The notes: generated from the sequence alone by a model not told the origin. A stretch of 64,000 nucleotides of DNA from Eledone cirrhosa (GCA_964016885.1 OZ024744.1:80228001-80292000); one strand, 5' to 3'. Shown: positions 1,151-57,150, counted from the first letter of the stretch. Translations and numbers: made by a program.

Positions 1151-1273
1151 TAGTAATAGTAGTAGTTGTAGTAGTATGTTAAGAGTGAAAGTAAAAGTGT
1201 TCAGCTAGCAAGGACAGTGTGTATATATATATATAAAAGAAGAAATTAAAAGATGGTTAAAGAAGTTCCATAT

Positions 1274-1341
1274 ATTTTATTATGCGCATTTCGAAAACAA
1301 CATCATCCTGGGACAAGAATTGTGTTCTCATCAGATAAAAT
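1274..1341 (-). ncRNA. Type I hammerhead ribozyme motif
   Basis: Minus strand reads attttat-CTGATGA-stem II-GAAA-tgcgca-TA-ataaaat. Confidence 0.8.
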
Positions 1342-1410
1342 AAGGTAACATGATATGAGGCCTAAAAACACATGTCAACAGGAAAGTGCAAAGCCTACAT
1401 ATGTTACCTT

Positions 1411-1478
1411 ATTTTATCTGATGAGAACACAATTTTTGTCCCAGGATGATGTTGTTTCCGAAATGCGCATAATAAAAT
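1411..1478 (+). ncRNA. Type I hammerhead ribozyme motif
   Basis: attttat CTGATGA gaacac...gtttcc GAAA tgcgca TA^ataaaat; 7-bp stem I and palindromic stem III. Confidence 0.85.
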
Positions 1479-1646
1479 ATATGGAACTTCTTTAACCATC
1501 TTTTAATTTCTTCTTTATATATATACTCCAGTTCTACCAGCTGTTGAGTGCTACTTATCTGATATATATGCATAGTTTTATTGTTCTACAATATTACTCA
1601 CCTTCTACACACACACACATATATATATATATATATATATATATAT

Positions 1647-1848
1647 ATAGGAACCAGTAAGACCCCGACAGCTGAGCTCAAGCCGTTTCGACGGCTAATT
1701 CTGGACTCTGAGTCCAGAATTAGCCGTCGAAACGGCTTGAGCTCAGCTGTCGGGGTCTTACTGGTTCCTATTACCCACTCTACTACCTCAAGTATTGAGT
1801 ACTTTGGTGCGTTATGGTCCACCTGGTTCCTTACCACATTTCCTTCGT
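1647..1848 (+). mobile_element. Perfect ~124-bp palindrome plus 3' tail inserted in (TA)n
   Basis: Palindrome 1647-1770 centred on ggactctgagtcc; tail contains actctactacctcaagtattgagt; (TA)n on both sides. Confidence 0.75.
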
Positions 1849-2614
1849 TATATATATATATATATATATATATATATATATATATATAATATATATAGTG
1901 AAAAATTGAACGGGAACAAAACAGAGAGGCAGTACGAACAAAGGTTTATTAATTTCACGCTCTTGAGAGTGGGGTGATGGTGGGAGAGAGGGGAGTAAAG
2001 GTAGGGTGAGGGAGATAGTTGGAGTGAAGCGTTTAGAGAAGGGTCGAATGTAAGATAGAGTGAGAGGCTTGTAGAGTGATTGAGTGCTAAAGTGAATATT
2101 AATGAACGTATGTGAAAGGAAGATAAAATACGTAGATAGATGAACGCGAGAGGATAGCAAAATAAAATCGAAGTAGAAACAAACAAACAAAAAATAATGG
2201 TGGTGGTAGTGGTAGTGGAGGGAGGACATTTAGATGGTTCAAATTTAGAATGTCTGTTCGTTCGGATTAAAATTAATATGTTAAATCTGTTGTAATTGTA
2301 AGGATTTTCAGAGCTGGACCAGACCAGACCAGACTAGAATTGTGAATCATTTTGAGTATGACTAAAACTGAGGAAAAGAAAGAAAAAAAAAAAAAAATAA
2401 ACGAGTGTTAAGATATCAGAAATAAACAAGGAGAAATCATAAAAGAAAAAAAAATGCAGTATAAAAATAAAAATCATGGTGGTGTGGGTGGGAGCGTGCG
2501 GATAGGAAATGATAAGGTGTAATGACGGCGTTGAGGAAGGCCTAGAAGAGCCGGATCTCAAAACCTAACCCGCCTACATTATACACACACACACACATAT
2601 ATATATATATATAT

Positions 2615-2798
2615 AAAGAAAGAGTTGTGGTAAGGAACCAGATGGACGAATACTCAATACTTAGGGTAGTAGAGAGAGTAATAAGAAAATGTATGACCCC
2701 GACGGCAGAGCTCAAGTCGTTTCGACGGCTATTTCTGGACTCAGAAATAGCCATCGAAACGGCTTGAGCTCTGCCGTCGTGGTCATACATTTTCCTAT
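2615..2798 (-). mobile_element. Second copy of the 1647 palindromic family, opposite orientation
   Basis: Arms about 2675-2736 and 2741-2798, homologous to 1647-1770; tail on the left; TA flanks. Confidence 0.75.
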
Positions 2799-54600: not shown

Positions 54601-54644
54601 TATATATATATACATATATATATATATGTATATACACACACACA

Positions 54645-55145
54645 ATACATATATATATATATATATATATACGTTTAAAGGGAGAATGAAATGTATAAAC
54701 GTAACAAATATATCATATATCTATATATATATGAATACAACGAATACAACGTATATATATATATATATATATATATATTCCTTTAAAGAGAGAATGAAAT
54801 GAATAAGCGAAACAAATATATCATCTCTCTCTCTCTCTCTCTCTCTCTTAATATATATATTCATATATATATATATATATATATATATATATATATATAT
54901 ATATATATACACACACACAATACATGTATATATGTACGTTTAAAGGGAGAATGAAATGTATAAACGCAACAAATATATCATATATCTATATATATGAATA
55001 CAACGAATACAACGTATATATATATATATATATATATGTATGAATACATACATATATATATATATATATATATATATAAATGAAAAGTATATACGTTTAA
55101 AGAGAGAATGAAATGAATAAGCGAAACAAATATATCATCTCTCTC
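54645..55145. repeat. Local tandem duplication
   Basis: cgtttaaagggagaatgaaatgtataaacg...gaatacaacgaatacaacg...tttaaaagagagaatgaaatgaataagcgaaac occurs twice. Confidence 0.8.
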
Positions 55146-55357
55146 TCTCTCTCTCTCTCTCTCTCTCTATCTCTCTCTCTCTCTCTCTCTCTCTCTCTCT
55201 CTCTTTATATATATACACTCTAACTGAAAATACGTTGTTTATATTATAAACAAGTTTGCACAACACGCGCGCGCACGTGCCATACACACACATGCACGCG
55301 CCTCTTAAAGAATATGTATGAAAATTAAAAGAAAAATATAAATAATTTGAATGAAAT

Positions 55358-55560
55358 ACTTACCATGGTTGTTGTTGTTGTTGTTATTCTTGTTGTTATT
55401 ATTTTTCTCTCCCCCCCTTTGCCTGTCGGAATGCTGTTAAGGAAGCAAAATGCGATCTGACTATCGGTGGCTGCAACAGTGGTGATTGATAAAACCGAAT
55501 GTGTGGGGAGAAAAAACAACAAAAACAAAAAAAAAACAACAAACAGACGACGTCACAGGT
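55358..55560 (-). other. Candidate host first exon ending in ATG followed by a splice donor
   Basis: Minus strand acaaccATG|GTAAGT at 55366-55358; non-repetitive sequence upstream with a CRE-like tgacgtc near 55549-55555. Confidence 0.4.
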
Positions 55561-55649
55561 TACCGAAGCTTTCGTATCGATTTCTACTCACACTCCAACT
55601 TTCTAACTCATTTACTCCCCCCTCTCTCTCTCTGTCTCTCTTCCCCTCT

Positions 55650-56540
55650 ATTTCTCTCTCTCTTACACACACCTTCTCTATCATTCGCTAGCTTCTACTT
55701 GTGCATGCTCTCTTTTTCTCTCTCTATATATATATCTCTCTCTCTCTCTATCTATCTATCTATCTATCTAAAATGCCTTTATGGTAAATAAAGAAATATA
55801 TCTATCTATTTCTCTCTTACACACACCCTCACTACCATTCGCTAGCTTCTACATGCATATGCTCTCTTTCTTTCTCTCTATCTATGTCTTTCTTTCTCTC
55901 TATCTATGTATTTCTCTCTCTCTCTCTCTCTCTCTCTCTCTCTCTCATTTTCTGTCATTCACTAGCTTCTAATTACGTATGCTCTCTCTCTCTCCTACTC
56001 TCACTTTCTCTTACATATACCCTCACTATCATTCGCTAGATTCTACTTACGTATACCCTCTCTATCTCTCTCTCTCTCTTACACACACCTTCTCTATCAT
56101 TTGCTAGACCCTACATACGTATACTCTCTTTATTTCTCTTTCTCTCTCTCACATACACCCTCTCTATCATTCACTAGATTCTACTTACGCATACTCTCTC
56201 TCTCTCTCTCTCCCTCTTACACATTTTCTCTATCGTTCGTTAGATTCTACTTACGTATACTCTTTTACTCTCTCTTTCTCAATTACACACTCTTTCTATC
56301 ATTCACTAGATTCTACTTACGCATACTCTCTCTCTCTTTCTAGTTCTTCCTCTCTCTCTCTCTCTTTCTAGTTCTTCCTTTCTCTCTCTCTCTTTCTAGT
56401 TCTTCCTTTCTCTCTCTCTTACACACTCTCTCTATCATTCGATAGCTTCTAGTTACGCATACTCTCTCTCTCTGTCGTACACACACACACACACGCACTC
56501 TCTCTATCGTTCGCTAGATCTACTAACACATACTCTCTAT
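55650..56540. repeat. Degenerate CT-rich minisatellite
   Basis: Recurring ctatcattc(g/a)ctag(c/a)ttctacttacg(c/t)atactc separated by (CT)n. Confidence 0.85.
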
Positions 56541-57016
56541 ATATTCATATATATATATCATCGTATATATTCATATATATATATATATATCATCGTCGCT
56601 CGCTTGCTGCATCACTTCCATCGCTTGTTGCCACTCTCTTTCTATTTACCCCTCCTTTTTTCTTTTTTTTAACCTTCTATTTTACTTTCTTTCGTCGCTC
56701 GTCATCTCACACAATCATACTCATACACAGAGAAAGTGAGATAGAGAAAGAGAGGGTTACGTTCTCTTTTCCTCTGGCTAAAGAGAGAGAGAGAGAGAGA
56801 GATACGGAGAAAGAGACTGATAGACAAACATTAATCGTACCAGTAATACACTGGAATAATTGCTGGCCTTGTGCCAAAAGTAGAAACAATTAATCAGTCA
56901 GACATATACACACACACACACATATATATATATATATATATATATATATATATATATATATATATATTATATGTAGAGGTTATATTTAATTTATATATAT
57001 ATATAAATGAAGTAAT

Positions 57017-57150
57017 TCCGTCGGAAAAGTCCAGGAAAAAAGAGTGCTCTATGTAGGTAACAGAGCTTAATTATTATTATGTAATAAACAACATAAGGCA
57101 ATTATTGGTAAATGGAATAATTGCCTTATGTTGTTTATTACATAATAATA
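57017..57150 (-). mobile_element. Fold-back insert of the 63303 HHR family
   Basis: Arms about 57072-57106 and 57116-57150; tail ggaaaag...agagtgctctatgt. Confidence 0.7.

What the first reader, a model, noticed from the sequence alone, without database searches (positions are those of the whole stretch)
1233..57150. Asymmetric palindromic inserts whose short arm ends at an equivalent site in unrelated families
Seen: in 1233-1609, 1647-1848, 2615-2798, 9090-9380, 29820-30306, 32288-32772, 32783-34850, 44302-44472, 48158-48349 and 57017-57150, one arm runs on into a tail of roughly 55-165 nt. The inverted arm stops at a TA-rich spot within about 10 nt upstream of ACTC(C/T) or GCTCT and joins host (TA)n. 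Independent copies of a family stop at essentially the same base: ...cactctttca in both 29820 and 32288, and ...aatatcgta in 42226 and 48349. Inference: two cDNAs are primed from opposite strands of a cut TA microsatellite, one at the RNA 3' end and one at a fixed internal TA-rich site, and are then joined. Inverted pLTRs are known in Penelope-like elements, but I do not know of a fixed internal priming site shared across families.
Basis: partly seen in the sequence, partly recalled or inferred. Interest (0 to 1): 0.88.

Follow-up and report, generated by a model that had tools for sequence, protein, structure and literature searches.

The report
Twin hairpins mark Penelope insertion ends
These lopsided palindromes are insertions of a known Penelope-like jumping gene, and both of their fixed ends sit just before two copies of one small, widely conserved, predicted RNA hairpin, used one per end, which likely tells the enzyme where to start copying and gives a testable explanation for the odd shape of these elements.

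Summary
They are Penelope-like elements (PLEs) of the Hydra type in (TA)n. Inverted pLTR plus 'tail' and two internal RT start sites are already published (PMC8557442, PMC11167929). I found no paper on the following in eight searches. In read-through copies the tail runs into a second copy of the same predicted hairpin (RCUC..GAGYRCU), then the ORF. Both end types lie mostly 5-10 nt before a hairpin. Two-ended inserts pair one end of each kind (68, against 1 and 0). The layout recurs in relatives at 36-39% protein identity from other organisms, with compensatory base changes. Some inserts have non-overlapping arms, as in L1 twin priming. Best reading: a likely RT dimer on one RNA primes both cut strands, one per hairpin. 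The scan noted similar fold-back PLE inserts in another genome.

The parts
1233..1609 (+). Family C insert: mirror arms 1236-1516, short end at left, hairpin H1 about 1525-1552, tail to 1609
1647..1848 (+). Family B insert: arms 1649-1769, centre at the putative transcript start, H1 about 1777-1803, tail to 1848
2615..2798 (-). Family B insert: arms 2681-2798, H1 about 2648-2684, tail to 2615
9090..9380 (+). Family G insert: arms 9087-9284 with hammerhead core, H1 about 9290-9317, tail to 9380; flanked by a 10-12 bp direct repeat in a non-microsatellite target
29820..30306 (+). Family A insert: arms 29820-30143 with hammerhead-like core just right of the centre, long-looped H1 from 30152, tail to 30306
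32288..32772 (+). Second family A insert: arms 32292-32606, tail to 32770
32783..34700 (-). Family G 5'-truncated body: GIY-YIG remnant, 3' UTR, pLTR 32878-33076, H1 about 32844-32872, tail to 32783
34302..34700 (-). Broken C-terminal GIY-YIG endonuclease frame, 40% identical to residues 579-685 of the intact family B protein
34655..34850 (+). Inverted pLTR of the same insert, short end at 34850
42089..42226 (+). Family D one-armed copy with short end
44294..44472 (.). Family D2 insert with non-overlapping arms: tailed arm (-) up to 44392 with H1 about 44356-44379, short-ended arm (+) 44395-44472
48158..48349 (-). Family D insert: tailed arm 48158-48333 with H1 about 48217-48239, inverted short arm of about 16 nt
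57005..57150 (-). Family E insert: arms about 57081-57141, H1 about 57042-57066, tail to about 57005

Best explanation
These are insertions of Hydra-type Penelope-like retrotransposons whose two fixed ends lie mostly 5-10 nt before two tandem copies (H1, H2) of one conserved, predicted RNA hairpin upstream of the ORF; the element's RT likely binds both hairpins, likely as a dimer on one RNA, and likely primes one cDNA from each cut strand of a TA-rich target. Shown by sequence: the order pLTR with hammerhead motif, H1, tail, H2, start codon; the end positions; one-of-each pairing; conservation in other organisms. Inferred: the GIY-YIG domain cuts both strands. One 3' end primes just before H1 (short end, no tail) and the other just before H2 (long end; the tail is the stretch between the two sites). 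Both cDNAs run toward the RNA 5' end and their ends are joined head to head, giving the inverted pLTR. When the H2-primed cDNA stops near site 1, the arms do not overlap. Less certain (about 0.5): many short palindromes are run-off copies ending at the transcript start in the pLTR, so full-length copies would need a template jump, a circle or a tandem RNA.
For: Read-through copies show H2 6-10 nt after the tail end in families A, B, C, D, D2, D3, G, G2 and H. In 854 kb of arbitrary sequence, microsatellite starts 5-10 nt before the hairpin at 37 of 49 short ends and 56 of 68 tail ends. Pairing: 32 short+tail of 36 two-armed inserts, with no short+short or tail+tail and 4 read-through or unresolved (6 of the 32 are window loci). 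A second set of 55 loci gave 36 short+tail, 1 short+short, 0 tail+tail, 4 unresolved and 14 one-armed. Either arm can be the long one: in L114 and L138 the long body has the short end and the inverted arm has the tail. In 6 of 32 pairs the tailed arm stops within 13 nt upstream of H1 or earlier while the short-ended arm covers 60-167 nt upstream. Stem of 4 pairs: 80 of 80 cells paired, first pair G-C 12, A-U 7, G-U 1; the third pair swaps U-A to A-U in two hairpins from other organisms. H1-tail-H2-ATG occurs in six elements from other organisms (L260, L310, L313, L315, L316, L322). L310 and L315 end 7-8 nt before H2, and L317 is a short+tail palindrome. In vitro precedent: two internal starts, both strands extended, dimer predicted (PMC11167929).
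Against: No biochemistry and no RNA data: no RNA run was listed. The hairpin region is not unusually stable (z -2.1 to +0.4 over 12 families; +2.2 for L315), and some copies fold otherwise. Independent compensatory changes are few, because most H1 are A-U and most H2 are G-C. H2 is degenerate in families E and E2. About a third of the short+tail palindromes (tails of 33-69 nt) show no H1 in the tail, and the L102-type family seems to have three sites. For PAc the paper places initiation inside an AC-rich stem-loop, not upstream of one. Start-site pile-up is strong in B (33 of 47 5' ends within 13 nt) but weaker in A (14 of 39), and one A subfamily mostly reads through. One-of-each pairing would also arise from an asymmetric complex on two RNAs.
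Confidence: 0.75

Rival explanations
1. Fold-back self-priming: a single cDNA is made, its end loops back and is copied, and repair or endonuclease trimming sets the short end (the self-priming idea of PMC3846280; endonuclease-resolved tail in PMC8557442).
For: Many centres are near-perfect palindromes with 0-6 unmatched bases, and the papers propose it.
Against: A fold-back copy cannot be longer than its template or hold different sequence. Bodies with the short end and inverted arms with the tail (L114, L138) and non-overlapping arms (44302 and five others) contradict it. It also does not explain the same offset before H1 and before H2.
Confidence: 0.1
2. The motif acts in DNA, as a site read by the GIY-YIG domain, which cuts element DNA 5-10 bp upstream and so defines the ends; or the ends simply fall on UA-rich patches that anneal to (TA)n.
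For: D. virilis endonuclease needed the tail for recognition (as cited in PMC11167929). Both sites are TA-rich and give 2-6 nt of microhomology. Folding scores are weak.
Against: Paired changes keep the stem while the loop varies from about 10 to 65 nt, which fits RNA structure better than a DNA site. Equally TA-rich patches elsewhere in the pLTR and tail are hardly used (7 of 132 ends elsewhere). In vitro PAc start sites match the genomic ends.
Confidence: 0.12
3. Assembly or library artefact (chimeric fold-back reads).
For: Palindromes are a known long-read artefact (recalled), and no read across a centre was displayed.
Against: Arms differ by up to about 10-20% substitutions and indels, ends are family-specific, the short end is in raw reads of another sample, and the same structure is in another organism's contig.
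Confidence: 0.01

Closest known systems
Hydra clade of C-terminal EN+ Penelope-like elements (Craig et al. 2021, PMC8557442)
   Same: Single ORF of about 717 aa with RT and C-terminal GIY-YIG, RW(K/R) and DKT motifs, CxCX5C linker, CxxC and CxH around the conserved E and N, no CCHH, hammerhead motifs, (TA)n targets, inverted 5'-truncated copy, tail at one end.
   Different: Tails are about 60-170 nt, not 30-40; units are about 3.5 kb; copy numbers are very high. The passages I read describe no twin hairpin or pairing rule.
PAc (Poseidon, Anolis carolinensis) internal initiation (Frangieh et al. 2024, PMC11167929)
   Same: Two internal RT start sites whose interval is the tail; AT-rich target; both strands cut and extended; uncleaved RNA as template; predicted dimer.
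   Different: Other clade. Sites lie inside the ORF in an AC-rich stem-loop, and no strand preference for either site was seen in vitro. Here the sites lie upstream of the ORF, each before its own copy of a conserved hairpin, and genomic inserts use one of each.
L1 twin priming (Ostertag and Kazazian 2001; recalled, not read)
   Same: The second target strand primes internally on the RNA, giving an inversion with non-overlapping arms, as at 44302-44472.
   Different: In L1 the first primer is at the poly(A) 3' end and the internal site is variable. Here both sites are internal and fixed, and most arms overlap into palindromes.

Membership tests
EN+ Penelope-like elements | One ORF with RT and GIY-YIG endonuclease | tested here: met
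   Intact ORF in L240 with YRDD and VIY..YIG motifs read by eye; 822 relatives at E<=1e-20. The Pfam scan itself gave no family.
EN+ Penelope-like elements | pLTRs from partial tandems, inverted 5'-truncated copy, tail at one end | tested here: met
   L134 and L240 (period 3,542 bp), window 32783-34850.
EN+ Penelope-like elements | Hammerhead ribozyme motif in the pLTR | tested here: inconclusive
   Core boxes seen by eye in families A, C, D, G and in other organisms' copies; a variant in B. Rfam listed none among the rows shown and single folds recover only part of it; cleavage untested.
Hydra clade | CxCX5C linker; DKT and RWK motifs; no CCHH; CxxC and CxH flanking E and N | tested here: met
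   P0001 has CNCPDRSIC, DKT, RWR (K to R), CNLC..E..N..CKH; families D and G alike against the definition.
Hydra clade | Insertion into (TA)n | tested here: met
   117 of 121 short and tail ends have a microsatellite at the end.
Hydra clade | RT phylogeny groups with Repbase Hydra families | not tested
   No named reference sequences at hand; assignment rests on motifs.
Naiad/Chlamys PLEs | N-terminal endonuclease, no hammerhead | tested here: not met
   Endonuclease is C-terminal.
MITE / TIR DNA transposon | Symmetric terminal inverted repeats, fixed length | tested here: not met
   Ends are asymmetric, arm lengths vary, and copies are pieces of RT-encoding elements.

The most novel reading that the evidence does not exclude
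Hydra-clade PLEs carry a clade-wide twin-hairpin RNA element that docks both subunits of an RT-endonuclease dimer on one RNA and programs two-ended integration, one strand per hairpin. Because the element sits near the transcript's 5' end, copying starts as short run-off ('strong-stop'-like) cDNAs, and full-length copies arise by a jump to the 3' pLTR. That would be a retrovirus-like step inside a target-primed reaction, and it would account for tail, inverted pLTR and partial tandems together.
Probability: 0.4. Interest if true: 0.82.

Novelty: new variant of a known kind. Interest (0 to 1): 0.62.

Why it matters
How PLEs make their inverted pLTRs and tails is stated as open in PMC8557442, and the 2024 in vitro work left the later steps unvalidated. 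A short, conserved, duplicated motif at a fixed distance from both start sites gives exact mutations to test, and an intact ORF is at hand (L240). The motif also lets annotators recognise these inserts, about one per 15 kb in the sampled sequence, which could otherwise be filed as MITEs, SINEs or unknown repeats. A defined two-ended RNA signal may also interest people building RT-based insertion tools.

Tried and rejected
Rfam scan of the window: only sub-threshold microRNA-like hits on repeats among the 150 rows shown of 173. Pfam: nothing for the endonuclease remnant or for P0001. Viral contigs: no relative. Sequencing runs: no RNA holder listed. Empty allele of 29820 in reads or contigs: none among the joints shown, so no verdict. 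Cap-derived extra G at the 5' pile-up: considered, but in most cases the G can come from the opposite arm, so it is not used. Splice acceptor as cause of the pile-up: both sites also fit an acceptor consensus, but no constant upstream exon follows in 100 listed copies; disfavoured, not excluded. Telomerase-like synthesis of the flanking (TA)n: the one clean paralogous empty site (9090 insert against L102) shows a 10-12 bp duplication and no added TA run. One case only; the other targets are pure microsatellite and uninformative. One search gave 420 spurious hits from a reference holding (TA)n and was redone. L130's 799-codon frame is mostly microsatellite. Three model hits inside ORFs (E 0.49) are chance but stayed in alignment A3.

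Full report
Setting. The window is G000:C28:80,228,001-80,292,000 in a 3.0 Gb, TA-rich animal genome; it looks cephalopod, which is my inference. Self-comparison and reading confirm the ten loci. Eight are mirror palindromes with a tail. 44302-44472 and 48158-48349 have a short and a tailed end but little or no mirror overlap.

Not chance, not local. For family A (29820), 22 of 28 other best-matching loci end the short arm within 4 nt of the same base (biased by the query). In an unbiased pattern listing, 60 of the first 100 of 2,931 hits stop just before the motif and 40 run into the tail (counted by eye). The family B tail end has 25,906 exact hits, with 98 of the first 100 passing into microsatellite. 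A de novo scan of 853,800 bases (window plus 79 arbitrary 10-kb stretches) gave 96 inverted repeats, 56 of them short+tail, a few of which are probably misassigned. Raw reads from another sample leave the element at 30147 into (AT)n (173 reads).

What they are. The 32783-34850 insert holds a GIY-YIG remnant with at least 150 scored genomic matches among 53,191 candidates. A near-complete relative (L134) reads: inverted 3' piece, upstream pLTR, tail, ORF, 3' UTR, pLTR, tail, (TA)n. Family B has an intact ORF of about 717 aa in a tandem array of period 3,542 bp. Its motifs fit the Hydra clade as defined in PMC8557442 section 11; no tree was built. ORFs behind ten families match this protein, so the families are relatives.

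What is known. PMC8557442 (passages and section 11 read) and PMC3846280 (passages and Discussion) describe the inverted 5'-truncated copy and a 30-40 bp tail often at one end only. PMC11167929 (parts 1-2 of 4 read; supplements searched as text, figures not held) shows for an Anolis Poseidon element two internal RT start sites whose interval is the tail, cutting and extension of both strands of AT-rich DNA, and a predicted dimer. So the overall shape and internal priming are known.

What the data add. (1) The tail end is internal. Read-through copies continue into a second copy (H2) of the motif that opens the tail (H1), 6-10 nt after the usual end, and then into the start codon. The motif is RCUC, a variable loop, then GAGYRCU with a conserved U two bases before it. 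(2) Both ends share one geometry. Of 132 mapped ends, 50 are short, 71 tailed, 4 read through and 7 lie elsewhere; microsatellite starts 5-10 nt before the hairpin in 37 of 49 and 56 of 68. (3) Inserts use one of each: 32 of 36 pairs in that sample, none short+short or tail+tail, and 36:1:0 in 55 further loci. The single short+short case (L285) hides an intervening tailed copy. Free choice would give about half mixed pairs. (4) Either cDNA can be the long one, and in 6 of 32 pairs the tailed arm stops at or before site 1 while the other arm carries the upstream part. This argues against fold-back and suggests one RNA. (5) The stem covaries, and folding predicts H1, H2 and, in 8 of 12 families, a stem joining the sequences after them, though stability is unremarkable. 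(6) It is conserved outside this genome. Among 27 loci from metagenome and genome collections (probably animal-host contigs, my inference), six elements at 36-39% identity show H1-tail-H2-ATG. L310 and L315 end 7-8 nt before H2, L317 is a short+tail palindrome ending 6 nt before H1, and two hairpins swap the third pair. L260's hairpins were in the training set of the model.

Centres. In family B, 33 of 47 5' ends fall within 13 nt around an initiator-like pentamer with a TATA-like box about 30 nt upstream. In 100 listed copies about 78 leave the element within about 6 nt of that base and 20 run on (by eye). Family A shows the same promoter-like geometry with a weaker pile-up (14 of 39), and one subfamily mostly reads through. 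A pLTR promoter is known for Penelope (PMC2377424, PMC3846280, passages). Run-off at the transcript start is plausible but unproven. Stalling at the hammerhead, or a splice acceptor as in D. virilis (PMC4209133, passages), remain possible.

Limits. No RNA or biochemical evidence. About a third of the short+tail palindromes lack H1 in the tail and were not classified. Target duplication is seen in one case only. Eight literature searches found no description of the twin hairpin or the pairing rule. Passages of PMC13282606, PMC8969392 and bioRxiv 10.64898/2026.07.22.740005 held none. Arkhipova 2006, Evgen'ev and Arkhipova 2005, Repbase entries and the supplements of PMC8557442 were not seen and may bear on novelty.

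Verdict. Real; a known element class and known shape, with an apparently undescribed, conserved cis-element and a near-strict one-of-each rule that make the mechanism testable. New variant of a known kind; interest 0.62.

Noticed in passing
   Followed up: partly
L183, L190, L247, L242 (families G and D), pLTR to start codon: A splice-donor-like motif lies upstream of the hammerhead and an acceptor-like one just after H2. If this is an intron, both hairpins lie inside it and only unspliced RNA could be copied, which would bear on PLE intron retention.
   Followed up: no
L102:3470-4450: A family with a 56-60 nt tail lacking H1 has the hairpin after that tail and one copy ending about 110 nt further on: three sites rather than two.
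   Followed up: partly
L089:362, L090:3165, L069:2678, L062:1582, L055:1865: Short+tail palindromes of families without the motif in the tail (33-69 nt); perhaps other PLE clades.
   Followed up: no
L240 (G000:C1:91.47-91.49 Mb): Tandem array of family B, period 3,542 bp, intact ORF; its hammerhead variant spans the putative transcript start, so only the 3' pLTR copy could cleave.
   Followed up: partly
L219/L220: Family B tandem with a 257-bp unit (pLTR, H1, tail, H2, ORF start), resembling a non-autonomous retrozyme-like repeat.
   Followed up: no
L310-L328: Prokaryote genome records in the collection hold contigs with these animal-type retroelements, probably host contamination; L316 lies in a 491-kb contig.
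   Followed up: no
window 23363-24957, 44429-44944, 59671-60789: Broken LINE frames: RVT_1 with a PHD-type finger, an RTE-like C-terminus (by eye), zf-RVT.
   Followed up: no
window 22550-23074: Two copies of another repeat face each other across a (TA)n/(ATC)n run; not of the short+tail kind.
   Followed up: no
window 21452-21651: Assembly gap of 200 N.
   Followed up: no
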